Assembly (NCBI RefSeq): GCF_932526225.1
Contig: NC_064037.1
Location: 3,120,996-3,184,995, forward strand
Direction: 5' to 3'
Source of the DNA: Nematostella vectensis
Lineage: Eukaryota
DNA: 64,000 nucleotides
Below are positions 18,801-57,833 of this stretch, piece by piece (within the stretch, counting starts at the first letter, position 1; every line of letters starts with the position of its first letter). Under the pieces are notes generated by a model. The model was not told where the DNA came from. It saw only the letters and a program-made list of their open reading frames with translations, and made no database searches. The translations under genes were made by a program, and so were the position numbers.

Positions 18801-21800
18801 AAATAACCAAATAATAAAGCAGGCTAATTTGATGTCATTGGGTGACATAGGTTGAAAATTTTATTTAAATAGTTATGCTTTGCCGATTTTTAATGACAGT
18901 ATTCGGCGCTTCCTTTTTTCAAGTATATAACAAGTCTTGAGAATGTTACCTCCTTGCAAAAACTGACCCATTTTTAGCGTTGCCGTGAAATATTTTCCTT
19001 ATCTCACCTTGAATAAACTGTTCAAGTTACGGCATATCATCGCCAAAATGTTGTTGCGGCGACACGAATCGAAAACAAAATCCTAATCTCGTTTGGTTGT
19101 AGTCAATCAAACAAGACAATTAAATCAGCCATCAAATTATTTTGTGTAATAGGATAAAATGTTATTTTTCAACAAAAATATTCCGCTTTTCTTTTGTACA
19201 CCATCAATAAATACCGATTTTTCTGAATTAAGTCGACCCCCTGGGAAAAACAATACACATATACGTGACATATTTCATCCGTTCTTCCCGTTATAGCTTG
19301 GATAGGATCATTGGCAATCGCGCTTGCATTTGGAGCATCACCGCTGGCGGCTGGCTTGTGTGCTAAGCTAGGCTGTCGTCCAATAAGCATACTGGGTCTC
19401 TTGGTAAGCTCAGTGTCTTTGGTTGCAAAATCATTCTCTTCATCATTCTCGCTACTTGTCGTCTTCGGGATAACATATGGCCTTGCGACAAGTTGTATCC
19501 ATGTGTCAAACATGCTTACAATCTCACGTTCCTTCGAGAAGCGTAGAGCGCTCGCCACAGGAATCGTTTCCGCTGGTCCGTCGCTTTTTGTTCAGGGAAT
19601 GGGACCTCTCGTCGGGTGGCTGACATCTACATTCGGATGGAGAAGTATGTACCGGATAATCGCCTCGTTTTTTGGCGTAGCGCTGGTTTTGACGTCTGTG
19701 AGTTTTGGCTCCAACATAAAAGATCCCTCGGAGGAAAAGGTTACACAGCTACATACGACTGGGAAATCAGCTCAAATGGGACAACAAACCGCAAATGTAT
19801 ATGGGCCAGACATTGCGCAAAGAAAAACGGTCGATAAAAACGCGACCCTATATCACAATCCGGGTGGGGCAGCGAGACTATTTGAAGAGGAAATTCTTCT
19901 AGAGAAGGCAGAAACTTCATCCGTGGAATGCTCGATGGAGGGCTTGAAAAATGACGCAAAATTTGCGGAGAACTCATTCGAAGATCGGCTGCTTGAAGAA
20001 AATGAAAAATTTCAACTATTCCACTTCTCTACTGAAGAGAACAAGAAAATTAATGAACAAGAAGTGCAGTATGACGAGCTAAAATTAGCGGTGGAAAATG
20101 ACGGCTCACTTGCTAAAGGGAAATGGCGTTCCGGCATCTCTTGTGATCAGAATTTTTCATTCATAAAGAGACCAGCTTACATTTGCACTGTGGTAAGCAT
20201 CACCTTATCCGGAGTTGGCATCTACGCTCCGTTTTTTCATTTGGTAAGTTGATATTTAAAAAAATAGCAGATAAAACAACGATGGACGATAGAAAAAACT
20301 CGTGAAATGGAAGTTCTCTTATGCAGGTTAAACATTGCGAGGAGGTTGGGCTGTCGTCAAGCGAGGCGTCCACGCTGTTCATTCACATCGGCATTTCTTC
20401 CCTCGTTGGTCGTATTCTCAGTGGTCAAATCGTCGACGCCTTCCACATCTCCCCCCTCAAAATCCACCAATGTGCTGACTTCATTTGCGGTGGCTCCATG
20501 CTCCTTATATGGCTCGCGAGTGACTATTTATCGTTTTCCGTGTTCGCAGTTGTTTACGGACTGTCGAATGGGGCGTACGTGACGACAATGTATTTGGCTC
20601 TGATGAATACAGTGGATGCGAGGGACAGACCGATGGCGTTTGGCTTAGGGGAGATGTTATGTTCTGCTGGGATTGTTATAGGCCCTGTACTTGCAGGTAA
20701 GACGGCCATGCTTGCGAAGTTAAGACCGACATGCACTTCGAGGGTAAGACCGAGATGCAATGCGAGGGTAAGACCGACATGCACTTCGAGAGTCGGACCG
20801 ATATGTATTGCGAGAGTAAGACCGATATGCACTGCCAGAGTAAGACCGACATGCACTGCCAGAGTAAGACCGACATGCACTGCCAGAGTAAGACCGATAT
20901 GCACTGCCAGAGTAAGACCGATATGCACTGCCAGAGTAAGACCGACATGCACTTCAATAGTAAGACCGACATGCACTGCGAGGGAAACCGACATGTACTT
21001 CGAGAATGAGACCGACATGCCCTTCAATATGAAGACCGACATGCATTGCGAGAGTAAGACCGACATGCACTGCATATCAAACATATTCCCCACGGATAGT
21101 GTCCTTCGTATGCATTGCCTTATATGGGCATTGATGCCCATATTTAGAAGAGCTAAAGTTTTCCCGCTCCCTGATCTCCAGAAAACATGGTGAAAAATAC
21201 TGATTCCTTTCAATTTGAGACTCGAGGCAAAAATGTGTCAAAAAAACTTTATCGCTTGGTCAAATCTTTATCACACAAGTCTTGAAAAGCCCTTAGACCC
21301 AGGCCTCCAAGAGATTGGCCGAGCGAGATTTAAGGTCACCCAAATATTGATATGGAGAGAAGACCGACATGCACTTCGAGACAAAGACCGACATGCACTT
21401 TGAGGGTAAGACCGACGTGCACTTCGAGAGTTAGACCGACATGCACTTCGAGAGTTAGACCGACATGCACTTTGACATGTAAAACCGACATTGCGAGAAA
21501 AAAACTCGATACACACACATTGCACTGTTTGATTTGGCAATGGACACTGATGAAGAGGAAGTAATTTTAAAACGTCTGCGAAATCGACTTTAGTTTAGCG
21601 CATATTATCTGTATTTTAATTTACAATAATCGTATTTACCAAGCGTCAACCGCTACAGCACCCTCTTTGTATAAATTATGCTGCAAGGGAACGACCGGCA
21701 TAAACTGCGAGATAACTAAGGCTAAATTCGCTGCTTGTTTTCCAGGTTTGATAGCAGATAAGACGGGTTCATACGTAGCAGCGTTCGGTATGACGGGAGG

Positions 21801-24800: not shown

Positions 24801-27800
24801 TTTTTAATTGCGCTGTTTTCGGCTGCACGAGCTCCCCTATACCTGGGAAGATCACCCCTTCGAAAACGGTGAGCGATCAGAGGCAAAGCGACGCAGAAAG
24901 GGCTGGGTAAACTTTGTTTCGCGAACTCGTGCCCACTGGAAGCCCACGGACAACACACGTGTCTGTTCGGAACACTTCGGTGTTTCAGACTTCTCAATGC
25001 GATATGATTTAATGGAGGGTACGTTTAACATCAAGAAACTTCGCAATGCGATATGATTTAATGGAGGGTACGTTTAACATCAAGAAACTTCGCAATGCGA
25101 TATGATTTAATGGAGGGTACGTTTAACATAAAAAAACTTCGCAATGCGATATGATTTAATGGAGGGTACGTTTAACATCAAGAAACTTCGCAATGCGATA
25201 TGATTTAATGGAGGGTACGTTTAACATCAAGAAACTTCAGATGGATGAAATCGGTATTGTGGCAATACCGTCGATTTACCCGAAGGGAAGCGACGAAAGA
25301 CCAAGCTCATCTAGAGATCGACGAATGGTATGTTTATCGCAGTTGTGCCAAAATTTGATTTGTTTCGGTTCTTGTATATAATTATCCAGGACTGAGTTGA
25401 TCATAGTTTTTGATTACTTAAATATAGGAACTGCGAAAAATTTTAACAGAGTCGAAAGAAAATATCGAAGGTAAGTTTTTTTAATCGACAGGATGATTCC
25501 TTGAGACGTGTCACTTTAGTCCGAAGTTGGATTTTCAAATTATTATTATTGCTTTATCTTTGTTTTTTTTTTTTTGTATCGTTGGTGTTGCAATACCATC
25601 AATGTTATCACGGAAGAGTGGTGATTTTAATGATTTTAATATGTATTAAAATACATAGCCTTTCTCTAACAACACACACGCAACAGAATATTTAACAAAA
25701 TATATAAAACGAGAGTTATAGTTGATATTATTTTTTATTCTAAAAATAAAGAGAAGTCATATCATGCGAGAACAACGATGGTGATCATGATGAGCAGATC
25801 ATTACAAAAAGCAAAGTAAGTCTTTTTATATTGATTTTTTTTGTATTGTCTTTTTTATTTGTGTGGTGGAATGGAGCCATTTTCTTTCAAATGTGATATT
25901 TCTTTATCAAAATTGCTTTACCCCTGTACTAGTTACAACAATGAATTTAAATTGTACGTAATTTGTTGCAAATCAATAAATCATGTGGATAAATAAAAAA
26001 ATGTGAATTTTCTATTTTACCCAATAATTTATCGGTTAATTCCCTGTCTTATACATATTGTTGAAATTTCTTATTTCAGAACTATAAAATGCAGAACGAA
26101 CCGGTGGCTTGTGAAAGGTGCTCTGAACTTTCACATAGGAATCGCAAGATTCGTAATCAGTTAATTTACCAAAGGCTGCAGTCCATCAAGTTCAGGGCAA
26201 AAATAAAGAAGCTAACACGTGGTATGTACTTTTTTCACCCCCATTTTTAGCAGAAATTGTGGAAATGTTGGGTTAGTGGTTGTTTATATCTAATATGTAT
26301 TTGTACTCACGGCTCAATGCCCACAGCCGGACACTCATCGATGACTACTATGCCTGTCCGGTCGGCCATGTCCATGATCTCCTCGGCGTACGGGTAGTGA
26401 CTAGTCCGGAACGAGTTACCTCCTAGCCACTTCATCAGGTTGAAGTCCTTGGCGATAATCACGTTATCGACTCCTTTACCTCGAATCTGAAAAAAAAAAG
26501 ATATCTTAAAGGCTCCGTTTGGCGCACAGCTTCCAATAAGCATCCCTCTTCGAATTAGCGCCCTCTCCCCACTTCTGGATATATTTGCAAGAATAGCCGA
26601 ACACAAGGCTTTTCTGTTTTATAACCCGTTAGTTACCGTTTTTATAGAACACTGAGAAAAGAGTACTGAGCAATTTTAAGTTGTTCTTGTTTCAAATCTA
26701 CAATTTAATTATCAAGCCAGGGGCGGATATAACTTGCGCCAAAGGGGTGTTTGGCTCAGTGACAAGGGGGAGGGGGTAGTTTTTTTTGTTATATGACTCC
26801 TAACGTATGATTTATTAAAGCGATGGCTCTGATGATTATTATACAAAAATTACCTCAGCGGCGAGCGATGATAAAACAGTCGATTACCCCCTCTTCTACG
26901 ATCGCCATGTTTACAACACTGTATGCCCTTTCTTTAGTCAAAACTCTCAGAGATATTCATGTATTTGCTTTACGATACAAACTTTTCGCCAAAGTGTGAT
27001 CAGATGTGGGTCTTATTCTCTGATATCCTAATAAATAGTGTCGATAAAACATAAAATAAGCCGCATACAGCATTAAGTACCGTCTTGTAGTGGCTTGGTC
27101 AATGGCGCGATAAGCCCAAATGCTTATCTACTATACTTACTTTACCATTGCTGGCCGCTAAAGCAATTTTAGTCATAAAATCCAAAAAGGCTCATCGCCT
27201 TTAAGATTCATACTATTGCTCCAGATTGCATTCAACTTTGGTCGATATTTTCGTAAAATATCATTTTCACACCCCATACTGCGCAAAAAATACAAAGTAT
27301 TGTATGGGAATCTTTACTTCCGGTGGATTTTGGTCCAGTTGGTGAAGTTCTTTGGCGCGGCAAAAAATATATTTTTTTACCAAGTTCCTTTCACCTGTCT
27401 TCGATGTGGCAAGGGGGCGTGATTAACAACAATACGGCTGCTCGGATGCCCTCCCAGGTACCAATTGCAAATACAAAGCATCTAATCGGTACTAATCATT
27501 ACAAAAGTTAATAATAATAATACTGGAATATTTGATTCTCTAAATAGGTATCGCATCTATTACTCACGTTTGCATCCTCGTGCTTGCCAAAGCCTTTAAA
27601 GTAAAACTCTTTGTCGTTGATGAGAAATTTAGTGCCTTCAACGCGTACAGTCCTTATTCCCACAGGAAGGCGGTAAACATCTTGTATGTACAACTGAGAC
27701 AACGTCGTTACCTAGAGGATACAAATTTCATCATCGACACCGTCACCAACAAAATCATCACCATCAATTAGTACCCAGGGGCGTAGCCAGGATTTGTAAT

Positions 27801-30800
27801 AGGAGGGGGCCCAAAAGGCCTTTATTTGACATTTTCTCCTAAATTTTTAAAACTGTCCCATGCATTTACTGTATTTTTGGATGCTAGAAGGGGTAGGCCG
27901 AGACCCTTGGGCCCTCCCCCTAGCTACGCCCCTGGTACTAACCGTTATCATCTGAAGACTGATTTCCATATGATCGCACACTATTTCAGCTAAATTGACC
28001 GTACGATAGCAACCGATCGCTGCTGCTTTCTATATAAACGCACGAATTATTGCTTCACCTTACAGTTCTTTAATCCCTTGGGAGTCAGGTAGGGGGGGGG
28101 GGGTCTCGTAAGTTTTTTTCTAAAAAAGGAAAGGTCAGATGTGTATGCCCCCCCTGTTTTCTTAATGTCCCTTGGCGGCCAAAAAGTGGGTCATTTCTTA
28201 TTAAGGAATCTTCAAATACGATGCTTTTTCAATATGATACCTAACCCCCCCCCCCCCCCTCCTCCCTCGGCCAATCCTGGGTACGCGCATGTCCATGTCC
28301 GTTAGGACCCTGCCATTTAACGCAACCCCCCGTACCTTGAGTGTGTACAGATATGCCGTGTTGTTGGTCATTCCAATTGGCCACCACAGGACCGGATTCC
28401 GGACAGTTAACTCTCCCTCAAACTTCTCTGTCCCTTCAACGGTTTCCACGACAAACCCCTCGTGGTCCAGTAACTCGTACTTCATATTGATGTCCCCTCT
28501 CGGAATAGACTTGATGGCACCCACCACTGACAGAAACTTGACAGTCCCGACATTACCATGGAATGACGTTGTTATGGTGATGTCAGAGAGGAAGACAACT
28601 GGGGTTGTGTAAAGTTTGACGGGGCGATTGATGCCGGCGTAATTAAAGAAGTCGAACTTGTAGGTCTGTACATTATAACCATCAGGGTGCCTGGACATCG
28701 GTAGTGACAATGAAAAAAACAAGGATACATTTATGTACATTCATGCCTTACCATACGAGTAGTACAAGTGTACATATGGGGGTACTTACTAGATGAGTGT
28801 TCACTCGAGGAGTAAATGTTATTTAATTCATGTGAGGTCGGTAGCTTATTATACGAATGTACGCGTATTCATGTGAGGCTGGTAGCTTATTATACGAATG
28901 TACGCGTATTCGTGTGAGGTCGGTAGCTTATTATACGAATGTACGGGTATTCATGTGAGGTCGGTAGCTTATTATACGAATGTACGCGTATTCATGTGAG
29001 GCTGGTAGCTTATTATACGAATGTACGGGTATTCATGTGAGGTCGGTAGCTTATTATACGAATGTACGCGTATTCATGTGAGGCTGGTAGCTTATTATAC
29101 GAATGAACGCGTATTCATGTGAGGCTGGTAGCTTATTATACGAATGTACGCGTATTCATGTGAGGCTGGTAGCTTATTATACGAATGTACGCGTATTCAT
29201 GTGAGGTCGGTAGCTTATTATACGAATGTACGGGTATTCATGTGAGGTCGGTAGCTTATTATACAAATGTACGCGTATTCATGTGAGGTCGGTAGCTTAT
29301 TATACGAATGTACGCGTATTCATGTGAGGTCGGTAGCTTATTATACGAATGTACGCGTATTCATGTGAGGTCGGTAGCTTATTATACGAATGTACGGGTA
29401 TTCATGTGAGGCTGGTAGCTTACTATATGAATACCATGAGAGGCTGGCTGCAAGCAAGTAGTGCCCATGTATGGGGGGCACATACAATCAGAAAGTGGGT
29501 GTTCCTTTTAAGTTGGTTGCAAACTATACGAATGTAAGGGTATTTACTTGGTAAAAGTGCGCTCTTGGGCGGAACAGGAGCGAGGGTGTTAAACAACTCA
29601 CCAGCTCCACGAGGACGGGAGATGTTCTACCTTCCCAGGGGGGAGGGTGGTGGGGGTGAGCGTGTTGTTGATGGCCACTGTAACCCTATTAGACTTATCG
29701 TAGCGTAGAAACTCACTGATGTCTGCCTCAAAGGCTAGGTAACCGCCCTCGTGTTCCGTCACCTTCTCGCCGTTCAACCACTGCAAGACATCCATATTAC
29801 ATACTCACGGACAAGCCGCGATGCATACGCTAAAATACAAATAAGGAATGCATACTACAAATTCGGCACTGGTGATTGCAGGCATATCGCCATGATGTTT
29901 CAGCACGGCAAGAGCGCGATGCATGAATATTGGGCCCGAGGTAAGTGACACACACGGCAAGAGCGCGATGCATGAATATTGGGCACGAGGTAAGTAACAC
30001 ACACGGCAAGAGCGCGATGCGTGAATATTGGGCACGAGGTAAGTAACACACACGGCAAGAGCGCGATGCATGAATATTGGGCCCGAGGTAAGTAACACAC
30101 ACGGCAAGAGCGCGATGCATGAATATTGGGCCCGAGGTAAGTGACACACACGGCAAGAGCGCGATGCGTGAATATTGGGCCCGAGGTAAGTAACACACAC
30201 GGCAAGAGCGCGATGCGTGAATATTGGGCACGAGGTAAGTGACACACACGGCAAGAGCGCGATGCGTGAATATTGGGCCCGAGGTAAGTAACACACACGG
30301 CAAGAGCGCGATGCATGAATATTGGGCCCGAGGTAAGTAACACACACGGCAAGAGCGCGATGCGTGAATATTGGGACCGAGGTAAGTAACACACACGGCA
30401 AGAGCGCGATGCATGAATATTGGGCCCGAGGTAAGTAACACACACGGCAAGAGCGCGATGCGTGAATATTGGGCCCGAGGTAAGTAACACACACGGAAAG
30501 AGCGCGATGCGTGAATATTGGGCCCGAGGTAAGTAACAAACACGGCAAGAGCGCGATGCGTGAATATTGGGCCCGAGGTAAGTAACAAACACGGCAAGAG
30601 CGCGATGCGTGAATATTGGGCCCGAGGTAAGTAACACACACGGCAAGAGCGCGATGCATGAATATTGGGCCCGAGGTAAGTAACACACACGGCAAGAGCG
30701 CGATGCGTGAATATTGGGCCCGAGGTAAGTAACACACACGGCAAGAGCGCGATGCATGAATATTGGGCCCGAGGTAAGTAACACACACGGCAAGAGCGCG

Positions 30801-33236
30801 ATGCATGAATATTGGGCCTGAGGTAAGTAACACACACGGCAAGAGCGCGATGCATGAATATTGGGCCCGAGGTAAGTAACACACACGGCAAGAGCGCGAT
30901 GCATGAATATTGGGCCCGAGGTAAGTAACACACACGGCAAGAGCGCGATGCGTGAATATTGGGCCCGAGGTAAGTAACACACACGGCAAGAGCGCGATGC
31001 GTGAATATTGGGCCCGAGGTAAGTAAGACACACGGCAAGAGCGCGATACGTGAATATTGGGCCCGAGGTAAGTAACACACACGGAAAGAGCGCGATGCGT
31101 GAATATTGGGCCCGAGGTAAGTAACACACACGGCAAGAGCGCGATGCATGAATATTGGGCCCGAGGTAAGTAACACACACGGCAAGAGCGCGATGCATGA
31201 ATATTGGGCCCGAGGTAAGTAACACACACGGCAAGAGCGCGATGCATGAATATTGGGCCCGAGGTAAGTAACACACACGGCAAGAGCGCGATGCGTGAAT
31301 ATTGGGCACGAGGTAAGTAACACACACGGCAAGAGCGCGATGCGTGAATATTGGGCCCGAGGTAAGTAAGACACACGGCAAGAGCGCGATGCGTGAATAT
31401 TGGGCCCGAGGTAAGTAAGACACACGGCAAGAGCGCGATACGTGAATATTGGGCCCGAGGTAAGTAACACACACGGAAAGAGCGCGATGCGTGAATATTG
31501 GGCCCGAGGTAAGTAACACACACGGCAAGAGCGCGATGCATGAATATTGGGCCCGAGGTAAGTAACACACACGGCAAGAGCGCGATGCGTGAATATTGGG
31601 CCCGAGGTAAGTAACACACACGGCAAGAGCGCGATGCATGAATATTGGGCCCGAGGTAAGTAAGACACACGGCAAGAGCGCGATGCATGAATATTGGGCC
31701 CGAGGTAAGTGACACACACGGCAAGAGCGCGATACGTGAATATTGGGCCCGAGGTAAGTAACACACACGGCAAGAGCGCGATGCGTGAATATTGGGCCCG
31801 AGGTAAGTAACACACACGGCAAGAGCGCGATGCGTGAATATTGGGCCCGAGGTAAGTAACACATACGTACCACTTTCGTGTAGTAGTTAGCGCCTTCAAA
31901 GCGGAGCACCACTCGGGTGTTAGAGTCATTCCATCTGGAAGGGACGTAAGTCTGCATGTCGTACCATGCCCAGCCGCGGAAGTCCCGGATGCCCTTATCC
32001 TGGGTTATGTCGTTATAGCTCGCAGGAACTGGCATGGGGATAACTTCACCTGACTTTAGACATGATTATTATCTTATATAAATAAGCAAATTATGCGAAG
32101 AGATCTTGAAATAAACAATGAAGTGAACCATTTCTCAAATTCAATCGAAAATATTTGATAATAAAACTACTCGAATAAAACAGCTTCCAGGCCCGTACAG
32201 TGACGTCACTGTACAGGCCCGTACCCAGGATTTTTCTTGGGGGAGTGCGAAATCCGAAAACGTGGACCAAATTTTTGGGGGGGAGAGATTGGAGGGAGTT
32301 TTCTGATAAAAATCTGACCACCCCCGTAAGAACAAAAAGGGATTTTTTATGCCTTTGCAGTATCTCCACGGACATTTATTGTCGGATTTGGCTACAAATA
32401 AAGTCTGACTTATGGATTGATGACATACCTGAGTGATCAAGCTTATGCTTTATAGTTTTGTCTACAAATAGCACGTCTATTGAGAACCAAAGTGGACTTT
32501 TGGCCGTTGTGGGGGGTTCGCAAACCCCTTTGGTACGGGCCTGGCTTCTGTTACCGGCTTCTATTTAATGACAATTTTACACTTAAAAAATATATTTATA
32601 TATAAATCGTGAAAGCACACAAAAAAACGGAAAATTTTGATAGCTCAAGAATTTTTTATACAAGAGTTTTAGCCCTGGCCAAACGAAACGCAAGCCCTCC
32701 TTCAGTAAATCCTGGATACGCGCTTGTGTGTCAAGGTGTACTAGAATGTCAGAGGCAACAATCCCTCTAGCAGAATAAACGGGTGAAATTCGACAGCTTG
32801 CCATAAAAAAAATTTTAGAATAAAACTTTGAATTTTATAAAACTTTGAATTACTTAGAAGGCAGTATTCTTTTTTTCCAACTTCGATATCTTAGTCAGTG
32901 TTATCAAATATTTTACCACCTATGGTTTTGGAATATTTTTCACAGTACAGTAAACACACGTGGCGCCTATAGTGCGAAAATGCGGCAATATCTTTCCCAA
33001 GAGAAAACATCATATAGACAAAATTAATATACCTTTTCTAGAGGTCTGCTAAACCAAGACTCTGCAAATCCAGCTTCTTTGTCTTTACTATTGTCCACCC
33101 GAAAATTCCACAATCCGCTAAGATCTTTGATCTCTCTGCTCTCTGATTCACGAGGAAACAACATTCCAGGCAAAGTGTTAGCATTACATGTGATTGTCAT
33201 GAAGATAAATGTGAGAAGTCCCTTTAAAGCACCCAT
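15806..33236 (-). CDS. GUSB: Beta-glucuronidase (GH2), 11 coding exons on the minus strand: 33033-33236 (ATG at 33236), 31871-32053, 29602-29780, 28336-28690, 27568-27711, 26311-26486, 22616-22762, 22091-22175, 17566-17742, 16570-16672, 15806-16023 (stop TAG 15806-15808). Total 1971 nt, about 656 aa
   Basis: Spliced translation aligns along its whole length with remembered human GUSB. Matching blocks include [116 protein letters not shown]...[86 protein letters not shown]. All 10 introns are GT-AG and phases are consistent. Confidence 0.9.
16035..16200. repeat. Cryptic tandem cluster of about 10 (a)catgtcaat(cag) motifs spaced 11-22 bp, in GUSB intron 10
   Basis: Direct reading: ttagacatgtcaat x3, aaatgtcaatcag and so on. 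Confidence 0.6.
16995..17185. mobile_element. Palindromic MITE-like element (TIR ctgggtaccagaggc ... gcctctggtacccagg; A/T-rich centre with (tta)n)
   Basis: Arms are reverse complements (cttgactgtcacgccggtcttggctacgaggaggg / ccctcgtagtcgagaccggcgt). Confidence 0.55.
17505..17525. repeat. G(21) homopolymer, which is poly-C on the GUSB coding strand, about 40 nt downstream of the GUSB exon 9 donor
   Basis: Direct reading. It creates a read-through ORF (17281-17886, minus) that encodes PPPPPPP. Confidence 0.8.
18212..18570 (+). repeat. Tandem duplication (~190 bp x2) of the promoter-proximal region and 5' part of exon 1 of the SLC16-like gene
   Basis: Copy 1 is at 18212-18400 and copy 2 at 18403-18570, about 90 percent identical. 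Both contain ctgtggtaaatacccgaggtcaa...caatcacccaccgacctcgcat.caagatcgactgcagaa.gctggctttgt...acagcATGaag(a/t)gtgtaga. Copy 2 continues into the real exon, whereas copy 1 diverges and hits a stop. Confidence 0.8.
18498..21936 (+). CDS. Monocarboxylate-transporter-like (SLC16 / MFS) gene, 4 coding exons: 18498-18675, 19297-20243, 20327-20696, 21746-21936 (TGA 21934-21936). It is nested antisense inside the GUSB intron between GUSB exons 22091-22175 and 17566-17742
   Basis: Translation has MCT-like transmembrane blocks ([22 protein letters not shown]; [34 protein letters not shown]; [20 protein letters not shown]) and a long hydrophilic TM6-7 loop. The C-terminal exon [29 protein letters not shown] matches the MCT1 (G)RLVDATGSYTAAFFVAGG region from memory. 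GT-AG junctions and phases are consistent. Confidence 0.8.
20697..21110. repeat. 24-bp minisatellite x~17 (gagGGTAAGACCGACATGCACTTC) starting exactly at the exon 3 donor of the SLC16-like gene; a second block of ~5 units lies at 21352-21480
   Basis: Each unit contains a GGTAAGA donor-like motif. The period is a multiple of 3, giving artefact ORFs on both strands (20554-21213 minus, 20731-21009 plus and others). Confidence 0.85.
21352..21480. repeat. Second block of the same 24-bp minisatellite (about 5 units) in the same intron
   Basis: agaccgacatgcacttcgag repeats. Confidence 0.8.
23560..24430. repeat. About 150-bp tandem repeat x6, each unit carrying a palindromic double CRE (tgtgacgtcatcgatgacgtcac), a third TGACGTCA and often an E-box cacgtg; about 400 bp upstream of the THAP ORF
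   Basis: Roughly 15-18 perfect TGACGTCA octamers in 870 bp by direct reading. Units begin caaccaa(a/t)cttgg(c/t)aggtgtcatg. Confidence 0.8.
24797..24989 (+). CDS. THAP-type zinc-finger (C2CH) ORF, first coding exon. The N-terminal [10 protein letters not shown] is in one frame and LHELP...[30 protein letters not shown] is in the +2 frame, ending at the donor GGAGG|gtacgt
   Basis: C-x4-C and C-x2-H spacing plus FHxFP-like, RRRKxW and WKPT motifs fit the THAP signature, but the two halves are in different frames with no valid intron between them. This could be a frameshift, a pseudogene or a sequence error. Downstream candidate exons 25243-25328, 25429-25471 and 26083-26222 have good splice signals but unverified frames. 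Confidence 0.4.
24985..25245 (+). repeat. 50-bp tandem repeat x5 whose unit is the 3' end of the THAP exon plus its donor (gcgatatgatttaatggagg|gtacgtttaacatcaagaaacttcgcaat)
   Basis: Direct reading; five tandem copies of the exon-end/donor junction. Confidence 0.85.
27770..27935. mobile_element. MITE family B (TIR cccaggggcgtagccagg ... cctagctacgcccctgg), about 160 bp, in a GUSB intron
   Basis: Perfect 16-bp terminal inverted repeats; a related fragment is at 26705-26770. Confidence 0.65.
28170..28290. mobile_element. Dispersed element family E (ggccaaaaagtgggtcatttcttattaaggaatcttcaaat...poly-C...ccaatcctgggtacgcgc); second copy at 63190-63330
   Basis: Two copies of ~120 bp share >85 percent identity and include a C-homopolymer. 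Confidence 0.55.
28790..29440. repeat. 41-bp minisatellite x~15 (ggtagcttattatacgaatgtacgcgtattcatgtgaggtc) in GUSB intron 3
   Basis: Direct reading; the period is 41 bp between ggtagc occurrences. Confidence 0.85.
29885..31865. repeat. 60-bp minisatellite x~33 (cacggcaagagcgcgatgc(a/g)tgaatattgggcccgaggtaagtaacaca) filling almost all of GUSB intron 2, abutting the exon 2 donor (31870) and ending about 100 bp from the exon 3 acceptor
   Basis: Every unit carries a perfect consensus 5' splice site GAG|GTAAGT on the plus strand, antisense to GUSB. The three long minus-strand ORFs (29805-31862, 29830-31929, 29900-32035) are periodicity artefacts, except that the first ~45 codons of the last one are real GUSB exon 2. 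Confidence 0.9.
32196..32549. mobile_element. MITE family A copy (see 15141-15407)
   Basis: TIR caggcccgtacccagg / cctggtacgggcctgg with a shared internal sequence. Confidence 0.65.
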
Positions 33237-36100: not shown

Positions 36101-39100
36101 ATGCGGTTCGCTCAGCTTGTCATGGGACCCGCGGGTAGCGGTAAGGTAGGTAATCTTGATTCTGGTCACGCGTTTTATTTCTATGCTGGAATTTGTTTAT
36201 TTCGACTCGCGCATTTTGTTGTCACATACACGTGTTCTTTGCTTAGCCTGCTAACCCAGCTCATGTGTGTTTATTGTGTTGTTTAGTCTACATACTGTAG
36301 CACAATAGTCAAGCACTGCGAGACGATTGGTCGCTCAGTACAAGTTGTCAATCTCGACCCAGCGGCCGAACACTTTACATACCCAGTGGCCATAGGTAAA
36401 AGCATCTGTAGAACAAATCCAACAAATCAGTATCCAATCAAACTAGTGTTACTCATAAAAAAAAGTGTGTAGAGGGATTAGACACTCATATGTGTGCATC
36501 TTTTAATACAGAGCCGTAGCAGGCCACGTAAGATTTGGGAGACACAATACAGAAACATCAAGAGGATATTTGGGGCACAGCCATGCTCCTCCTGGTCATT
36601 TCCTTATAATTTTTGAAAATTTTAGGGAGGCATATGCCCCCAGTGCCCCACCCCCTGCTATGGCCCTGTAACAGTTACTGTTACACTTACACCACCAACA
36701 ATAATACCCTTTGTTCTATTGGCTACCTGTGGAAATCCCCCATGCCCTCTTGGCTACCTGTGGAATCCCCCATGCCCTCTTGGCTACCTTTGGAACCTCT
36801 GTACCCTGTTTGTTGTGTCATATCCATCAATATAAAGCAATCAATGCTATTAGAGTAGTAGTTTAAGCAGTATGTGCTATGCAGGGTGAAATATTTTGTG
36901 TCTTGAATAAAGACTGAGTTGAATAGTGAATGGTTCTTTTACTACATTGCTGGTCAATGGTCAGCAAACGACTGACTCGCTAGTTACATGCTTGGTCATA
37001 AAATCAACTCAAATCACGCGTTACCAAGGTGACGGTAACAACATTACATTTCTCCCTTCTTTGGAGATAACCTAGCACATATATAATAGACGCAATTCAA
37101 ACTAAATTAAAGTATACAATCAAAATGACCTGGGGAAACTAAGTCCTTTAGTCTATCATTAGCTCTAAAAATAAGGGTACAGTAGTTTGCTCAGTTTTGA
37201 TTCTGAACTTGGTCACTTTTTCTATCAACAACTAAAATGTAAATGTCACATGAATATTTGTTACTCTCTCTCTCATATAGATATCAGGGAGCTTGTGGAG
37301 CTAGAAGATGTCATGGAAGCAGATGATTTAAAGCTCGGTCCAAATGGGGGACTTGTCTTTTGTTTAGAGTAAGTGTAGCCAAAACGCCAAGAAAAACATG
37401 GCTTTTGACTTGTTTAAGCTATACATGGTTTTCTTATCATTACAGATTTTTTGTACAGAATTTTGAGTGGCTGCAGGAACAGCTTGGGGAAAATGATGAT
37501 GACTACATCCTCTTTGACTGTCCAGGTTAAAGCTGAACTGTTGAATCCATATGACTAATTGATCTTAAATTGTCAATTGCACAAGCTTTGATACACAGAC
37601 AAAAGCTTAGGCCAAATCCTGGTTCAGATCGGATTTTTGCAGATGTTGAAACCTGACTCTTGACATTGGGGAATTTGAATTCCTCACCTTCTTTGAAAAC
37701 AAAATCCAATTAATGACACAGTAAAAATCACAACATGCAAAGATTGGTGAGAAAACAAATAATTAATTAAATCTTTAATAATTGGTCAATGTAGAAATAT
37801 TTCTTTCCTCAGGTCAAATAGAGTTATACACCCATCTGCCTGTGTTTAGACAAGTGGTGGAAACACTTCAACAGTGGGATTTCAGAGTGTGCGGGGTGTT
37901 CTTGATTGACTCCCAGTTCATGATAGAGTGTAGCAAGTTTTTCTCTGGAATTTTGTCAGCTCTAGCTGCCATGGTTCAGCTGGAAGTTCCTCATATAAAT
38001 GTCATGACCAAAATGGATTTGCTAACCAAGAAACAACTCAAGACAGTCCAAAAGTAAGTCAGACATCCTCAACTCCGTGGCATTCCACCAGGTAAACCAG
38101 CCCTGCCTTTTTCTCAGTCAGACATTCTCAACTCTCTGGTATTCCACCAGATTAATCAGTCCCTCCTTTTTTAGTCAGACATCCTCAACTCACTGGTATT
38201 CCACAAGGTCCACTTGACCCCCCCCCTTGCAGCCAGGCATTGTCAACTCTCAGGCATTCCACCAGGTCCATTTGACCCCCCCCCCCTTGCAGCCAGGCAT
38301 TGTCAACTCTCAGGCATTCCACCAGGTCCATTTGACCCCCCCCCCCCCCCTTGCAGCCAGGCATTGTCAACTCTCAGGCATTCCACCAGGTCCATTTGAC
38401 CCCCCCTTGCAGCCAGGCATTGTCAACTCTCAGGCATTCCACCAGGTCCATTTGACCCCCCCCCTTGCAGCCAGGCATTGTCAACTCTCGGCATTCCACC
38501 AGGTCCATTTGATCCCCCCTTGCAGCCAGGCATTGTCAACTCTCGGCATTCCACCAGGTCCATTTGACCCCCCCCCCCCCTTGCAGCCAGGCATTGTCAA
38601 CTCTCAGGCATTCCACCAGGTCCATTTGACCCCCCTTGTCTCTTAGTCAGACATCCTAGCATTTCCCATTGTTTCACTATTGTGTGACTGTGTGAGAAAT
38701 CTCTTCATTTTTTTAAGTATAAAATTATATAATAAAGTTGAACTCCTTGAATAGGAAATTTTTTTTTATTTGTTCAAGATATCTTGATCCAGATCCTCTA
38801 ATGCTACTAGAAGACCTTGGTGGCCAACTCAACAAAAAGTTCTGGAAGCTTAACAAAGCACTTGGTCAGCTGGTATGTAGCTTAACAAAGCACTTGGTCA
38901 GCTGGTATGTAGCTTAACAAAGCACTTGGTCAGCTGGTATGTAGCTTAACAAAGCACTTGGTCAGCTGGTATGTAGCTTAACAAAGCACTTGGTCAGCTG
39001 GTATGTAGCTTTGTTTCAAAGACCTCTACTAGAAAATTAAATGTTTACTTTACTGTTTAGCCCCCTGTCCAAATTCATACGGTAAATTGCACTATTGCCA

Positions 39101-40646: not shown

Positions 40647-40802
40647 CCTCAATTGCTAACAGAAAATATTCATTTACAACATTTTAAGCATATAAATGCA
40701 TGTAGAAAAAGGGTGGTGAGGATTTCCTTTCACCAAGTTTTTGTTTCTGTTGTAAAAACATAAGACTTTATGCTAATGCTAATTTCTCAAATGTGCTTTT
40801 TA

Positions 40803-41170: not shown

Positions 41171-41865
41171 CAACAGATTAAATCTCAATTTTTTATTTGC
41201 AAAATGAGGTAATTTAGTAGAGGTACACATGTAGATATAGTTTACACTCATGTTAAGTATAGAAAACTGATTCTGATACAAATCAGACTACTGTTTAGTT
41301 CAGTAATGTATGAACCATTTTTACTAGTTAGCCAATATTTGCCATGATGCAGTGACATCACCTACTATTACCAGCCACTTAATAAATAGAGCAGTTAACT
41401 AACAATGACTGAATGATCACTTGCTCGGTAAAAAAAGACTATTTTTGATTAACACACAGGCCTGCAAAGGTCGGGACCTATTTAAAGCTCAGTAATTCGA
41501 CATCAAAGATAAGTGTTGCATTTGGTGGGATAGTGAAAAATGTCAAGGATAAACACATGGCACACCTATCAGTCTTCTTATTAGTATGTTAGTACTTTGA
41601 GTAAACTGTGCTGAAGATGGCTCTATCTTTAATTAAACATATCTTTTATAGAGTATGCAAAAATGCTGAGTAAATTGTAGAGTTTGCAATGGGTTGATCA
41701 CATTTTTAGGTACTGTAAAAAGGCTATTATGTAGAGCATGCAAGAGAGCATGAAGGGGTATCATATCTTTAGGTAAAAAGGTTATTTTGTAGTGTTAGCA
41801 AGGGTGCTAAGGGGATTTATAATAATTTTTTTGCAAAGGTATTAGGTACTGGAAAGACTAGTCCT

Positions 41866-43922: not shown

Positions 43923-44559
43923 TTTTATCCTGCAAATTTGGAATCTTCCTCAAGCCACGAGTGTCAAGCGAAGTAGACCGAGCGATCAGCACCCAGCATG
44001 CTTTGCCGGTTAACGCCCAAAGTATATTTGAGAAGGGGTGGAGAGAGTCTTCCCCACCTACCCCTACTGAGTACTCATCGCTGGTCAAAATTTTAGTGGG
44101 CTCTGATGAATTTCTTTTTGTTTTGATGATCCTTCGATTGTAACAGTAAAACTGGCTGCATTCTTTTTAAATCTTATTCCTTTCTTAACCTTGTGATATA
44201 AAAGCGATGGAGACTTTATAAAGATTCTTCGGATTTAATTTTGGCTGTAGCGGAAAAAAGATTTTGTGTTTTTACTGGTAGAGAAAAGTGGCAAATTTCC
44301 AAAGGCCGTTTCTATAGAACTGTTTTTACTGGCAGATCTTAAAACGGCTTTTTTATTTGGTAGAAGAACAGCACTAGTTCTGGGAGACTACGGTAAGGTT
44401 TAAATATAGGTAACATGCTACTTCATACAAAGACGCCTTTACAAATTAGTGCAGCTTCCTTGTTAAGTTTAACTAGCGAACACCATGGCCAGGAAATCAA
44501 ATAAAACCTCTCACTGTTCAGGAGGGGGGGGGGGGGAATTTTGCAAGCCAATCCAGCCA

Positions 44560-46177
<1,618 letters not shown>

Positions 46178-54100: not shown

Positions 54101-54224
54101 CTGAAACACAATTTGGGATAAAACAATTAGAAATTGCCCGTTTATAGTGTGACACAAGCCACCAACATGGCCACAAACACAAAGTTTTGAAAAAACTTAG
54201 CCAATATCATCAGTTGCCGTGGTT

Positions 54225-54485
54225 TTTAGATTCATATGGTGTAGTTCCAGAAAATTTCCATACCCCCACCCCATTGAGAGGATTGGAAATTCCGGGGGGG
54301 GGGGGTAGGGGGTTCAAACTCCCAGGAATTCCAAAGGGAGGGGGAGGGGGGTAAAATACCCTTTTTCCTTAACAGTTACTGTATTAATTTTTTTCCAGGG
54401 GGTTGGAAATTCCAGAGGGGTGGGGGGTCATACCTCCGACCCCCTCAATATGGGGTATGGATATTTTCTGGAACTACACATTCTG
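54225..54485. mobile_element. MITE family D (TIR ccagaaaat(t)tccatacccc ... ggggtatggatattttctgg), G-rich; a related copy is at 7895-8040
   Basis: Terminal inverted repeats plus an internal inverted ggaaattccgggggg / cccctctggaatttcc structure. Confidence 0.55.
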
Positions 54486-56442
54486 CATCCTGGTTCAAGA
54501 TCAAAACAATCTTGGCATAATTCTAGAGTAAGTCTAGGTTATTTTATCTTACACTTTACTTCAACCTAGATGTATCTAATTCTTACATCGACTTCAATAA
54601 GTTTTTAACTGTTCTTAAGATCTGGAGCCTTGATGAGGATAAACACTTGGAAAAGTGGACTATCAGTTTTTGGTATCTCGATATTTGCCAAAGAAATTCA
54701 ATTTATCTTACACAGTACTTAAGAATTGCCTACAGCATGATTTCAATCTGTCAAACACTCTACTTAAACAGTCACCTGTCTTTCCTGCCCTTTGTTTTAA
54801 TTGAGCTTGAAATGTGTTCAAGCTTGTGGCTTGCAAAAACCCCAAGAACTTCCTGGGAATACTGTAGAGTTAAAAATAAAAATTTAGACATGTAATAGAA
54901 AAAACAATTCAACAAGAAAAAATTGAAATTATAATTAACTTGTTTCACATTATTGTATGATTTTGCTCTTTTTTTCTTACAGAACACTAATTTTTAATAG
55001 CGTACTGCCCTTGAATAGACTTTTATACATGCACTATAAAACAGTAGCAAACCTTTGAAAAAGTCTTCCAACCAACAGTTGTGTAACATTGTGTTGGATT
55101 ACGGAAATAATCCTGCAATGCCCAGAATTTCCTGTACAAGTTGTAGTCCACTGGCGTCAGATTGCTACAGAAAGAATAGAATTAAAGACAAAAAATTAAT
55201 TTAATTATTTAATTAATTAATTTAATTAATTTAATTAAGTTTGTCAACTAAAGCACAAAATATTTCTAAATAAAACTAAAAAAATGTTTCACTATGTATT
55301 TCAAAAATCAATCAAATGTTTTCCATGTGTCAAAGTGTGATAGTAGCACACAGGAAAGGTTGGGATAGCAAGAACAGCCTGTAGGGGTGCATGTATTTCC
55401 TGGGATCAATGCTTCAACTGTTATCATTTCTTTAAAAGCTCACATCTGTTACCATTGAAGGCAACTTTACAGTATCCTAACCACTCAAGTCATAAGGCAA
55501 CTGTTCATGTGAGTGCCATTAGGCAACCAGCCCTTGTCATTAAGTGTTAGACTCCTTTGCCAAAGTTTTTTTCTTTTTTTTAAGTTTTGAATGCAGCACA
55601 CACAAAAAAAACCCTGATAAGTCATGAATGGATTCAGCCAATGGGAGCACAGGGTTGTACTGTAGCAAGCACTAGTTAAATACAATATTACTACCCGAGA
55701 AGCCCAAGAGGTACAGAACAGTCTTTACAAAGATAGAATTTGGATGAATAAACGGAAAAACTCCAAACCAAATTCTCAATAGAACTGCCTAAGTTTTCTT
55801 ATTTCCTGGAGACTGTGACAATTTGATTGTGGTAGAGGAACACAGAAAAGCCAAATCGGTAAAATAAATATCAACTGAACGGGACTGAGAAGTGGCCAAG
55901 CAGTGAGCAATATAAATAAGTTTTTAACAATCCGGGCTGTACATTTTCACATTTACTAGGGACTGCTATGATTTGATTGTGCTAGAAGAATGTGGAAATC
56001 GCTTAGTCGCTAAAAGCAATATCAACTGAACAGGAACTGAGAGTTATCGAAATGTAAACACTGTTACAGCTCAGTATAATGCATCATTTTTACCGATTAA
56101 ACCCAAATTCAATGAATAGAATTCAATTGCAAGTTTCATCTTGCATTGTTCTTCACCACATTCTGATTCATATTCTCTTCACTCTGTGCGCACGGCGGGG
56201 AATGAAAGAGTGATTACTTCTTTACTCACAAAATAGCGTGACAGCCCTGACAACCCCGGCCGTAATTTATTTAGACATTTTAATTTAAATATTTGATAAC
56301 AATTAATCCTGCAAAGTCTCACAACTCATCATAATATCGAATACAAAGTGAGAAACTGAGACAGAAGGAAATTCATGGTGAGATTCTCACCTCCAGGTAA
56401 GAATAAAATAAATATGAATTGAACTTTTGAAATGATTGGTCA

Positions 56443-57833
56443 AGGGGACCAAAAGTATGTGAATTAATGACTAGGTGGTCACACTTTGGGCTTCTCGCGC
56501 TGTAAATATCCAACCTCTGCACAAGTTCTCCTGCTTCTGTTCCATCCCCAGTCTCCATGTCATTTACAGAATCCTAAAATTAGAGAAAACAATAAAATCC
56601 GCTATCAATCTAAAATATTTGCACTATTAGTAAAAGGAAGGGGCAAAAAATGTTACTGATATTACCTCTTCCTCAGTCTTTGTGGCATATGCAATGACAT
56701 TATCAAATTCTTATCACCTCTTTCTGGGTTGTTGTGGCATATACAGTGACATTACTGTATCAAATTGTTCTTACCTCTTCCTCGGTTGTTGTGGCATATG
56801 TAGTGACATTATCAAGATTAAACTGACTCATGAGATTGAGACCTGTAAAAGGAACACCTCCATGTCAGTCATTCAACGCTTAGAGCGTCTAAGAGCACAA
56901 TTTAGGAGGATGTTCAACATTGTCCCCATCTAACATACAGAACAGTCTACAGTTAGTCAAGAAATGATGGTCTGACCTGATTTTTCAGATAAAGGGAAAA
57001 GTCTTGCTAAGAATAGCTGTATTCTCCCACAAAAGACTGTGTTCTGTGAAGCAGAGAGCCTTCGTAGCAAATCTACAAAAGAGAGAAGAATACAAATAAA
57101 CTTGAATGCCCTACATTTTTGTATGCCTCTCTCCTCTAATAATCAACAGATGGCACCATGGATGATGTCACAGTTATGAACAAACAAAGCTCATGTTTTA
57201 CATAGTCATTACCATAGTATAAATTATAATTGATTAAAAAAATCCCATGCCCATAAATACAATATAAATAATTGAGCCAAATATACATATTACAAAACAA
57301 GATTGCATTTCTCCAACTTTTCAAGCAAAACAGCGAATAAAATACTGATCCATCCATCCACACACATTGAATATGGATATATCACATTTTGGAATCAAAC
57401 TTTTTAGCTTACTCTCTTGACTTACCATTACACATTCTAAGGAGTAAATTTTTGCCACTGGAGAAGAAAATAGGCTGAAAACAAACAAAAAACATTTTTC
57501 TAAAGTCATAATAAATATACTGTAATCAAATACTACAATAAACACTGAAGATAAAATTAACTAAATCACATTTATAGTTTGACAGAAACACTAACCATTT
57601 TGTCTTAGTTTTACAAGTCATGCATAGTAGATGGTAAATAATTGGTGAAGGACAGAATTTGCATAAATCAAACCCTGAGATGATTTTTTAATGCACAATT
57701 CTTACCATGGTCCAAGTTGAGACCTGTTCCTCAACAAAAGTAAACAAAGAATCACAGCGGTCTAGGGTTATAGTGTCAAACACATCGCTGAGAAGTATGA
57801 CTGGCAAAGTTGTTGAGCAGGTACCTACAATAA
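56443..57833 (-). CDS. Candidate upstream exons of the same (or another) minus-strand gene: 57717-57833 (..TCSTTLPVILLSDVFDTITLDRCDSLFTFVEEQVSTWTM|gtaaga), 56775-56842 (LNLMSQFNLDNVTTYATTTEEE|gtaaga) and about 56485-56571 (DSVNDMETGDGTEAGELVQRLDIYSARSPK)
   Basis: Good acceptor/donor pairs and open frames; continuity with the 51128-54100 exons was not verified. Confidence 0.3.
56665..56835 (-). repeat. 55-bp tandem repeat x3 whose unit is the minus-strand exon end plus donor (..gataatgtcactacatatgccacaacaaccgaggaagag|gtaagaac)
   Basis: The three copies end gaggaagag|gtaaga, cagaaagag|gtgata and gaggaagag|gtaata. Confidence 0.8.

What the first reader, a model, noticed from the sequence alone, without database searches (positions are those of the whole stretch)
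20697..56835. Tandem arrays repeatedly seeded at 5' splice sites, with units carrying the exon end plus donor or a consensus donor motif
At least six independent cases occur in this one window. (1) SLC16-like exon 3 donor 20697: a 24-bp array x17+5 begins at the donor, each unit GGTAAGA. (2) THAP exon donor ~24990: 50-bp x5 = exon end + gtacgt. (3) GUSB intron 2, 29885-31865: 60-bp x33, each unit GAGGTAAGT, abutting the exon 2 donor. (4) GPN3 exon 5 donor 38054: 60-bp x9 starting at gtaagt. (5) GPN3 exon 6 donor 38873: 32-bp x5 = 24 nt exon + gtatgtag. (6) Minus-strand exon donor ~56775: 55-bp x3 each ending GAGGAAGAG|gtaaga. This looks like a systematic process or selection rather than chance. 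Possible explanations are replication slippage at spliceosome or R-loop-prone junctions, or arrays that act as decoy donor clusters, or recursive or alternative 5' splice-site banks.
Basis: seen in the sequence. Interest (0 to 1): 0.85.

Follow-up and report, generated by a model that had tools for sequence, protein, structure and literature searches.

The report
Minisatellites abutting splice donors in Nematostella
In this stretch of the sea anemone Nematostella vectensis genome, five variable-length tandem repeats start at or span the 5' ends of introns; this is a known kind of harmless repeat ("mirages" in amphioxus, the F7 and CBS repeats in humans), not a new splicing device.

Summary
The window is Nematostella vectensis: the GPN3 protein assembled from it is 100% identical to EDO31324.1.

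Five of the six claimed cases hold, with corrections.
- Two arrays reiterate exon end plus donor: GPN3 exon 6 (32 bp x5.2) and THOC1 (about 57 bp x2.8).
- Three arrays start at intron position +1 to +4: the SLC16-like gene (24 bp), GUSB intron 2 (49 bp x40, not 60 x33) and GPN3 intron 5.
- GUSB lies on the minus strand, so its GAGGTAAGT motif is antisense to the gene.
- The THAP case is wrong. That 49-bp repeat sits inside coding sequence of a frameshifted THAP pseudogene.

The association with donors exceeds chance: P about 0.014 under a generous null and about 1e-6 under a strict one. The count is five donors against no acceptors.

The evidence favours neutral minisatellites.
- The 2007 assembly holds a version of GPN3 exon 6 with a single copy of the unit.
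- Three other arrays differ in copy number between assemblies.
- Five-base microhomology flanks the 32-bp unit.
- Pseudo-donor GTs decay in the SLC16-like array.
- Downstream donors in GPN3 exon 6 and THOC1 would give premature stop codons.
- Four other anthozoan GUSB loci show no such arrays.

This is a new member of a known kind. A genome-wide test is still needed.

The parts
20697..21073 (+). 24-bp minisatellite, block 1 (x15.8), in the last intron of the SLC16-like transporter gene. It starts at intron position +1. The authentic donor CAG|GTAAGA is at 20697.
   Evidence: TRF; sequence; junction GPVLA^GLIADKTG aligned without a gap to MCT10; donor scores 11.1 for the authentic site against 8.7, 5.6 or lost for the repeats.
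21355..21491 (+). Block 2 (x5.7) of the same 24-bp repeat, separated from block 1 by 281 nt of unique sequence. The intron ends at 21745.
   Evidence: TRF.
29904..31867 (-). 49-bp x40.1 minisatellite filling GUSB intron 2 (31870 to 29781 on the minus strand). It begins at intron +4. The plus strand carries GAG|GTAAGT in every unit.
   Evidence: TRF; tblastn with P0001; gene model; unit analysis; 35.1 copies in the 2007 assembly.
31871..32053 (-). GUSB exon 2, ending AAAGTG|gtacgt.
38057..38660 (+). 59/58-bp minisatellite (about 10 copies plus a partial terminal unit) in GPN3 intron 5. It starts at +4 of the intron (donor G at 38054, CCAAAA|gtaagt).
   Evidence: TRF; sequence; junction confirmed against human GPN3 9t5j_C and two public gene models; about 6 copies in the 2007 assembly.
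38847..39011 (+). 32-bp x5.2 perfect repeat made of the last 26 nt of GPN3 exon 6 plus gtatgt. The authentic donor is at 38873. Pseudo-donors lie at 38905, 38937, 38969 and 39001.
   Evidence: TRF; junction LNKALGQL^IEDYSMV; a single-copy version in L005 15042-15204; downstream donors give stop codons.
56660..56826 (-). About 57-bp x2.8 repeat of THOC1 exon end plus donor. The authentic donor G is at 56774 (GAAGAG|gtaaga). Pseudo-donors lie at 56717 (gtgata) and 56665 (gtaata).
   Evidence: TRF; exon against copy 2 scores 29, shuffles reach at most 17; junction confirmed against human THOC1 7znk_A; same copy number in the 2007 assembly.
24989..25238 (+). 49-bp x5.1 repeat inside the coding sequence of a frameshifted THAP-domain pseudogene.
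16031..16180 (-). Comparator: a 13-bp array (TTGACATGTCTAA) that ends 7 nt before the acceptor of the last GUSB exon.
9349..9470 (+). Comparator: a 56-bp x2.2 pyrimidine-rich array that ends 13 nt before an acceptor of the coiled-coil gene.

Best explanation
These are ordinary, unstable intronic minisatellites of the 'mirage' type. A local tandem duplication overlaps or starts just inside a 5' splice site and then grows and shrinks in copy number.

**Origin.** The founding duplication arises by replication slippage or microhomology-mediated repair. Later changes in copy number come from unequal exchange.

**Why they are tolerated.** The exon-attached donor comes first and is the strongest, so it keeps being used. 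Everything downstream of it, including repeated exon ends and pseudo-donors, is removed with the intron.

**Why donors and not acceptors.** Equivalent duplications inside exons or across acceptors would damage the mRNA and are removed by selection. What survives is an excess at donors.

**Function.** The repeated donors have none, and they decay.

**Shown here:**
- the arrays and their positions;
- the exon boundaries;
- copy-number variation between assemblies;
- a single-copy version of the GPN3 exon 6 unit;
- flanking microhomology;
- decay of the pseudo-donors;
- stop codons if downstream donors were used.

**Inferred:** slippage as the mechanism of origin, exclusive use of the first donor, and selection as the cause of the donor/acceptor asymmetry.
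For: - **Positions.** Array positions relative to 50 modelled introns. Junctions checked against solved homologs, by tblastn and against public Nematostella gene models that use the first donors.
- **Recent and dispensable.** The 32-bp GPN3 exon 6 array is 100% identical between its copies. The 2007 assembly also contains a version with a single copy of the unit.
- **Instability.** Copy numbers, window against 2007 assembly: 40 vs 35 (GUSB intron 2), about 10 vs about 6 (GPN3 intron 5), 14.8 vs about 48 (GUSB intron 3), 50 vs 18 (55-bp array).
- **Slippage signature.** AGCTT occurs at exon position -26 and again right after gtatgt, 32 nt apart. The single-copy version has AGCAT there.
- **No selection for donors.** In the SLC16-like array the GT is 0.83 conserved against 0.90 for the rest of the unit. 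The authentic donor scores 11.1 against at most 8.7 for the repeats.
- **Cost of misuse.** Every downstream donor in GPN3 exon 6 and in THOC1 introduces a premature stop.
- **Asymmetry.** Five arrays at donors, none at acceptors.
- **Precedent.** Amphioxus mirages do not disturb splicing (PMC3087553, PMC3902484). In human F7 only the most upstream of the identical donors is used (PMC1557585).
Against: - A pure neutral-plus-filter model predicts no excess of arrays that merely start at +1 to +4 without spanning the junction. Three arrays do exactly that. The expected count for all five donor-associated arrays under uniform placement is 0.23, and I have no tested explanation for the excess.
- No RNA data were available, so exclusive use of the first donor is inferred from gene models and reading frames.
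- The 24-nt SLC16-like unit keeps the reading frame open, so nonsense-mediated decay would not police misuse there.
- The near-perfect plus-strand donor motif in all 40 GUSB intron 2 units has a chance probability of about 0.4% for a random 49-mer. It is unexplained.
- The single-copy version lies next to an assembly gap in an old draft assembly. It could be a collapsed read rather than a true haplotype.
Confidence: 0.6

Rival explanations
1. A splice-site-linked mutational mechanism seeds the arrays. Candidates are R-loops or transcription-replication conflicts at U1-bound junctions, or cDNA copies of excised introns that begin exactly at +1. Under this reading the donor is a hotspot for founding duplications.
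For: Three arrays begin at +1, +4 and +4 of their introns without including any exon sequence. Uniform placement expects 0.23 events and 5 are seen. The same left boundaries occur in the other assembly.
Against: - Under a null that counts any unit overlapping a donor, P is only 0.014, and the window was picked because of this pattern.
- Thirty-nine introns of four other anthozoan GUSB loci, including a Nematostella paralog, show no array within 10 nt of a donor.
- Fourteen of the 19 intronic arrays here are not at donors.
- The young GPN3 exon 6 array has a plain microhomology signature with a breakpoint inside the exon, not at the junction.
Confidence: 0.15
2. There is no real association. 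The window is 15.5% tandem repeat, ancestral introns were short and units are long, so several arrays touch donors by chance, and a reader looking for patterns noticed them.
For: - Tandem repeats cover 15.5% of the window.
- Random intronic 20-mers have a local duplicate 12-16% of the time, against 2 of 50 donor windows.
- The generous null expects 1.63 events.
- One of the six cases was wrong, and one motif was on the wrong strand.
Against: Even the generous null gives P=0.014 (0.007 for strong arrays only). The donor-to-acceptor count is 5:0. Two independent arrays start at the identical position, +4.
Confidence: 0.15
3. The arrays are functional. They would act as banks of decoy, alternative or recursive 5' splice sites, or as U1-binding platforms that tune splicing or suppress premature polyadenylation.
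For: - GTAAGA persists in 11 of 16 units in block 1 of the SLC16-like array.
- The 24-nt unit keeps the reading frame open.
- GAG|GTAAGT is intact in 40 of 40 units of the GUSB array.
Against: - The GT is less conserved than the rest of the SLC16-like unit.
- The GUSB motif is antisense to the gene, and the array is 97% identical throughout, so intact motifs carry no information about selection.
- GPN3 intron 5 units carry no good donor; the best scores 2.0.
- Downstream donors give premature stops.
- A version without the array exists.
- No unit has the pyrimidine-tract-AG|GT layout of recursive sites.
Confidence: 0.05
4. The arrays were delivered by mobile elements (minisatellite-bearing transposons or introner-like elements) that prefer splice-donor-like targets.
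For: - The window holds a dispersed repeat family in many introns.
- Block 2 of the SLC16-like array is separated from block 1 by 281 nt of unrelated sequence.
- The GUSB unit has an exon-like plus-strand layout, TTTCAG|37 nt|GTAAGT, in its first copy.
Against: Each array has a different unit with no similarity to the others. Two units are plainly copies of the adjacent exon end. I did not systematically look for terminal inverted repeats or target duplications beyond the partial terminal unit that any array has.
Confidence: 0.05

Closest known systems
Amphioxus 'mirages': minisatellite-like tandem duplications of exon-intron boundaries (Adh3, Canestro et al. 2002; globins BflGb6/9, PMC3087553; PGBD5, PMC3902484)
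   Same: - Tandem repeats whose units include an exon end and its splice signal.
- Units of 10 to about 160 bp.
- Copy-number differences between haplotypes.
- Normal mRNA despite the reiterated AG/GT signals.
- Several cases in gene-dense regions.
   Different: - Here the host is a cnidarian.
- Only two of the five arrays truly reiterate the exon end; three start at +1 to +4 inside the intron.
- All five are at donors, whereas amphioxus mirages occur at both 5' and 3' boundaries.
- Somatic instability could not be tested.
Human minisatellites whose first unit spans a donor: F7 IVS7 37-bp VNTR, CBS 31-bp VNTR, IFI6 (6-16), LMNB2 and PDGF introns (reviewed in PMC1557585)
   Same: The authentic donor is followed by identical or near-identical pseudo-donors. 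The arrays are polymorphic in copy number. The upstream site is the one compatible with the normal protein.
   Different: In the human genes, donor use was measured experimentally. There, only the first donor is used, or the first and the next two pseudo-donors. Here it is inferred. The density, five arrays in 64 kb, is far higher than anything reported for human loci.
Intron gain or extension by tandem duplication across AG|GT proto-splice sites (Rogers 1989 model; cases in PMC4974935, PMC2891723, PMC2812944)
   Same: Duplication of a segment that contains a splice signal places the duplicated material in the intron and lengthens it. GUSB intron 2 is 94% array.
   Different: All five introns sit at positions confirmed by homology: to human proteins for GPN3, THOC1 and the MCT family, and to other anthozoans for GUSB. 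No new intron has been created; existing ones have been extended.

Membership tests
Mirage / boundary-spanning minisatellite | Head-to-tail repeat with a minisatellite-sized unit (about 10-160 bp) and at least 2 copies | tested here: met
   TRF: units of 24, 49, 58/59, 32 and 57 bp, with 2.8 to 40 copies.
Mirage / boundary-spanning minisatellite | The unit spans an exon-intron boundary, so that exon end and splice signal are reiterated | tested here: inconclusive
   Met for GPN3 exon 6 (26 nt of exon plus gtatgt) and for THOC1 (score 29 against a shuffle maximum of 17). Not met for the SLC16-like array, which starts at +1 with no exon similarity. Not met for GUSB intron 2 or GPN3 intron 5, which start at +4.
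Mirage / boundary-spanning minisatellite | Length instability or polymorphism between alleles | tested here: met
   Window against the 2007 assembly: GPN3 exon 6, 5.2 copies against 1; GPN3 intron 5, about 10 against about 6; GUSB intron 2, 40 against 35. THOC1 is unchanged at 2.8 copies. The SLC16-like array could not be compared.
Mirage / boundary-spanning minisatellite | Normal splicing is kept; pseudo-sites are silent or minor | not testable with these tools
   No RNA data. Indirect support: public gene models EDO31324.1 and XP_048581885.1 use the first donors, and downstream donors give stop codons.
Recursive splice sites | Juxtaposed 3' and 5' splice-site motifs (pyrimidine tract-AG|GTAAGT) inside a long intron | tested here: not met
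   The unit junctions read GCGAGG|GTAAGA, GCCAGA|GTAAGA, GGCCCGAG|GTAAGT (antisense to GUSB) and CAGCTG|GTATGT. None has a preceding pyrimidine tract. The introns are 0.2-2 kb.
Alternative 5' splice-site bank producing protein isoforms | Downstream donors keep the reading frame and give a viable product | tested here: not met
   All downstream donors in GPN3 exon 6 and THOC1 give premature stops. Only the 24-nt SLC16-like unit is frame-neutral, and it would insert residues inside the conserved GPxLAG|L motif.

The most novel reading that the evidence does not exclude
In Nematostella, and perhaps in other repeat-rich marine invertebrates such as amphioxus, minisatellites are preferentially born at the first few nucleotides of introns. 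The cause would be a transcription- or splicing-coupled mutational process. This would make 5' splice sites hotspots of intron growth, and of occasional exon damage such as the array-like patch that overwrites the end of GUSB exon 2 in the 2007 assembly.
Probability: 0.15. Interest if true: 0.65.

Novelty: new member of a known kind. Interest (0 to 1): 0.33.

Why it matters
If the pattern is only local, it adds a cnidarian example to a phenomenon described in amphioxus and in a few human genes. It also supplies natural test substrates for how the spliceosome picks among identical donors: a GPN3 allele with five perfect copies, and apparently one with a single copy.

If a genome-wide test in Nematostella confirmed a pile-up of array starts at +1 to +4, it would point to a mutational bias tied to 5' splice sites. 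That would bear on how introns grow and how new introns arise by duplication.

Nematostella is a laboratory model with chromosome-scale assemblies and deep RNA-seq, so both questions can be answered directly.

Tried and rejected
- **THOC1 reference protein.** A protein search with THOC1 fragments returned only short fragments and no full-length reference. I mapped the THOC1 exons with my own anchor script and checked them against PDB entry 7znk.
- **Locus look-ups that failed.** P0001 (Nematostella GUSB paralog), P0024 (amphioxus GUSB, meant as a positive control) and P0282 were not on record.
- **Other anthozoan GUSB loci** (Actinia, Acropora, Porites and a Nematostella paralog). None of 39 introns has an array within 10 nt of a donor; the closest is at +23. 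This gives no support for a general anthozoan pattern, but the sample is small.
- **Are the arrays that start at +4 degenerate copies of the exon end?** I found no similarity beyond the first intron bases.
- **Are donors more often inside local duplicates than random intronic positions?** They are not: 2 of 50, against 12-16%. This shows that array boundaries are the unusual feature, not array coverage.
- **Rfam scan of the window:** no hits.
- **Literature search for Nematostella minisatellites at splice sites:** nothing found.
- **The original mirage paper (PMC117041)** is not held in the library.
- **Lariat-derived rolling-circle cDNA as the origin of units that start at +1.** I considered and rejected this. 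Units of 24-59 nt are too short to be lariat loops, and two units contain exon sequence.
Full report
**What the window is.** It is metazoan DNA with short introns, and 15.5% of it is tandem repeat. The GPN3 protein assembled from the window is 100% identical over its full length to Nematostella vectensis EDO31324.1 / XP_001623424.1. Scaffold DS469914.1 of the 2007 Nematostella assembly aligns to window 27136 to about 57900 at 97-99% identity. The organism is therefore the starlet sea anemone, and a second, independently assembled version of most of the region was available for comparison.

**Gene layout.** I placed exons from open reading frames, Pfam, tblastn with a Nematostella GUSB paralog, and an anchor-based splice-site script. 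I then checked the critical junctions against solved homologs.
- GUSB lies on the minus strand, from 33227 down to about 15836, in 12 exons.
- An SLC16-like transporter gene (plus strand, about 18400-21935) is nested in a GUSB intron on the opposite strand. So is a THAP-domain pseudogene (plus strand, about 24790-25380).
- GPN3 is on the plus strand (36101-40155).
- An FKBP gene (minus) and a PCMT-domain gene (plus) follow.
- THOC1 is on the minus strand (62961-50259).
- In all, 50 introns were modelled.

The junctions next to the arrays align without gaps to human GPN3 (9t5j_C), human THOC1 (7znk_A) and MCT10 (9gsz_A). Two public Nematostella gene models use the same GPN3 junctions.

**The six cases.**
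- *Case 5, GPN3 exon 6.* Exactly as described: 26 nt of exon plus gtatgt, 32 bp, 5.2 perfect copies, authentic donor at 38873.
- *Case 6, THOC1.* Also correct: three diverged copies of about 57 bp, each with exon end plus donor, authentic donor at 56774. The exon part of copy 2 matches the exon far better than shuffled sequence does, 29 against a maximum of 17.
- *Case 1, SLC16-like.* The array starts exactly at the donor G (20697), but the exon end is not part of the unit. GTAAGA survives in only 11 of the 16 units in block 1.
- *Case 4, GPN3 intron 5.* The array starts at intron position +4 and carries no good sense-strand donor.
- *Case 3, GUSB intron 2.* The unit is 49 bp x40, not 60 x33. 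The gene is on the minus strand and the array starts at +4 of its intron 2. The striking GAG|GTAAGT, intact in 40 of 40 units, lies on the plus strand, antisense to GUSB.
- *Case 2, THAP.* This case is wrong. Collapsing the array to one unit gives a continuous THAP reading frame, CSEHF...[26 protein letters not shown], with the usual AVPTIF-like box. 'gtacgt' therefore codes for G-T-F. The four extra units break the frame, and the N-terminal part has another frameshift.

**Is it more than chance?** Among 19 intronic arrays, five span a donor or start within 4 nt of one. None does so at an acceptor; the nearest end 7 and 13 nt upstream.
- If each array is placed uniformly in the unique part of its host intron, 0.23 such events are expected (P=1.3e-6).
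- If any founding duplication whose unit overlaps the donor counts, 1.63 are expected (P=0.014; 0.007 for strong arrays only).
- Donors are not more often inside a duplicated segment than random intronic positions: 2 of 50, against 12-16%. The unusual feature is where arrays begin, not how much they cover.
- The window was flagged because of this pattern, so these P values are optimistic.
- Four other anthozoan GUSB loci, 39 introns in all and including a Nematostella paralog, have no array within 10 nt of a donor.

**Evidence about mechanism.**
- *Copy number varies between assemblies.* The arrays differ between the window and the 2007 assembly: 40 vs 35 (GUSB intron 2), about 10 vs about 6 (GPN3 intron 5), 14.8 vs about 48 (GUSB intron 3), 50 vs 18 (a 55-bp array downstream of THOC1). 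The older THOC1 triplet is unchanged.
- *A version of GPN3 exon 6 without the array.* The 2007 scaffold holds two versions of the GPN3 exon 6 region on either side of an assembly gap. One has 5.2 copies. The other has a single copy of the unit. The window has only one copy of this region, so the two are most likely haplotypes. On that reading the array is a recent, dispensable duplication.
- *Microhomology.* In the array-bearing version, AGCTT occurs at the start of the unit and again right after gtatgt. The single-copy version reads AGCAT at the second place. This is a classic microhomology setting for slippage.
- *Pseudo-donors decay.* In the SLC16-like array, the only diverged array that reiterates a donor, the authentic site is the strongest (11.1 against at most 8.7). 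The GT of the repeated units is less conserved than the rest of the unit (0.83 against 0.90), and the unit next to the real donor has lost its GT.
- *Misuse would be costly.* Using any downstream donor in GPN3 exon 6 or THOC1 introduces a premature stop.
- *No recursive-site layout.* No unit has one, and Rfam finds nothing in the window.

**Interpretation.** The best-supported reading is that these are neutral, unstable minisatellites of the kind called mirages in amphioxus (PMC3087553, PMC3902484). The same kind is known from human F7, CBS, IFI6, LMNB2 and PDGF, where the first unit spans a donor and the upstream site is used (PMC1557585).

Duplications that overlap a donor leave the first, exon-attached donor in place and simply lengthen the intron. 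Duplications in exons or across acceptors are removed by selection. That accounts for the 5:0 asymmetry.

What this model does not explain well is why three arrays begin at +1, +4 and +4 without including any exon sequence. A splice-site-linked mutational bias remains possible (I give it about 15%), as does plain coincidence in a repeat-dense window (about 15%). Functional readings such as decoys, donor banks or recursive sites have no support and several points against them (about 5%).

**Unexplained.**
- The plus-strand GAG|GTAAGT in every unit of the GUSB intron 2 array has a chance probability of about 0.4% for a random 49-mer. The first unit is preceded by TTTCAG, so on the plus strand it looks like a 37-nt exon with a consensus donor. 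No plus-strand gene is evident there, and I had no RNA data.
- In the 2007 assembly, the last roughly 45 nt of GUSB exon 2 before ...ACTACACGAAAGTG are replaced by a degenerate array unit, which creates a stop codon. If this is real, arrays at donors can overwrite the neighbouring exon.

**Verdict.** The thing is real and modestly non-random, but it belongs to a known kind and shows the hallmarks of neutral repeats rather than of a splicing device. It appears not to have been described in Nematostella in the literature I could search. A decisive genome-wide test is straightforward in this model organism.

Noticed in passing
L005:5806-5870 (2007 assembly), equivalent to window 31871-31935: In the 2007 assembly, the 3' part of GUSB exon 2 is replaced by a degenerate copy of the 49-bp array unit (alignment score 28, shuffles reach at most 15). 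This introduces a stop codon. The window version encodes the conserved ...[15 protein letters not shown]. It may be a null allele created by array encroachment or gene conversion, or it may be an assembly artefact.
   Followed up: partly
window 29886-29945, plus strand: The first unit of the GUSB intron 2 array looks like a plus-strand mini-exon: TTTCAG|37 nt with one open frame|GTAAGT. All 40 units keep the consensus donor on the plus strand, antisense to GUSB. The chance of such a motif in a random 49-mer is about 0.4%.
   Followed up: partly
window 18400-21935 and 24790-25380, plus strand, inside GUSB introns on the minus strand: An SLC16-like transporter gene and a frameshifted THAP-domain pseudogene are nested, in antisense orientation, in introns of GUSB.
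   Followed up: partly
window 8605-8908: A 51-bp x6 repeat lies in frame inside a large exon of a coiled-coil protein gene. It encodes a 17-residue glycine-rich repeat, GAEGTYVGGTSAGFQGR.
   Followed up: partly
window 47214-49977: A 55-bp x50 array lies about 290 nt downstream of the apparent THOC1 stop codon, between the convergent PCMT-domain and THOC1 genes. The 2007 assembly has only 18 copies. This THOC1 appears to end at ...ENGRC, with no death-domain exons found downstream.
   Followed up: partly
window 16031-16180 (minus strand) and 9349-9470 (plus strand): Two arrays end 7 and 13 nt before acceptors. Their units look like branch-point (TTGACAT, CTGAC) and pyrimidine-tract sequence, so the 3' ends of introns may also seed repeats without duplicating the acceptor itself.
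   Followed up: no
window about 2850-3310, 6780-6970, 7790-8100, 15100-15370, 17345-17630, 28050-28300, 32090-32450, 42880-43050, 52420-52700, 53640-53810, 54150-54570, 63160-63400: A dispersed repeat family recurs in many introns and on both strands. Its translations contain poly-proline or poly-glycine runs and a recurring ...QRHKK...FRTPP.KILGTGL... motif. It is probably a short interspersed or miniature element.
   Followed up: no
L005:10979-11028, 14991-15040, 17150-17199: The 2007 scaffold repeats stretches of this locus on either side of assembly gaps, at 97.7% and 99.7% identity to the window. The window has them once, so the draft probably placed two haplotypes in tandem.
   Followed up: partly
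No 100% protein match turned up in the protein search, and the 2007 gene calls list no gene over its exons. It seems to be an unannotated paralog.
   Followed up: no
P0282 (XP_048581885.1), window 36101-46170: The RefSeq model LOC5502209 joins GPN3 to the downstream PCMT-domain gene as one 548-residue read-through product, across the FKBP gene that lies between them on the opposite strand.
   Followed up: no
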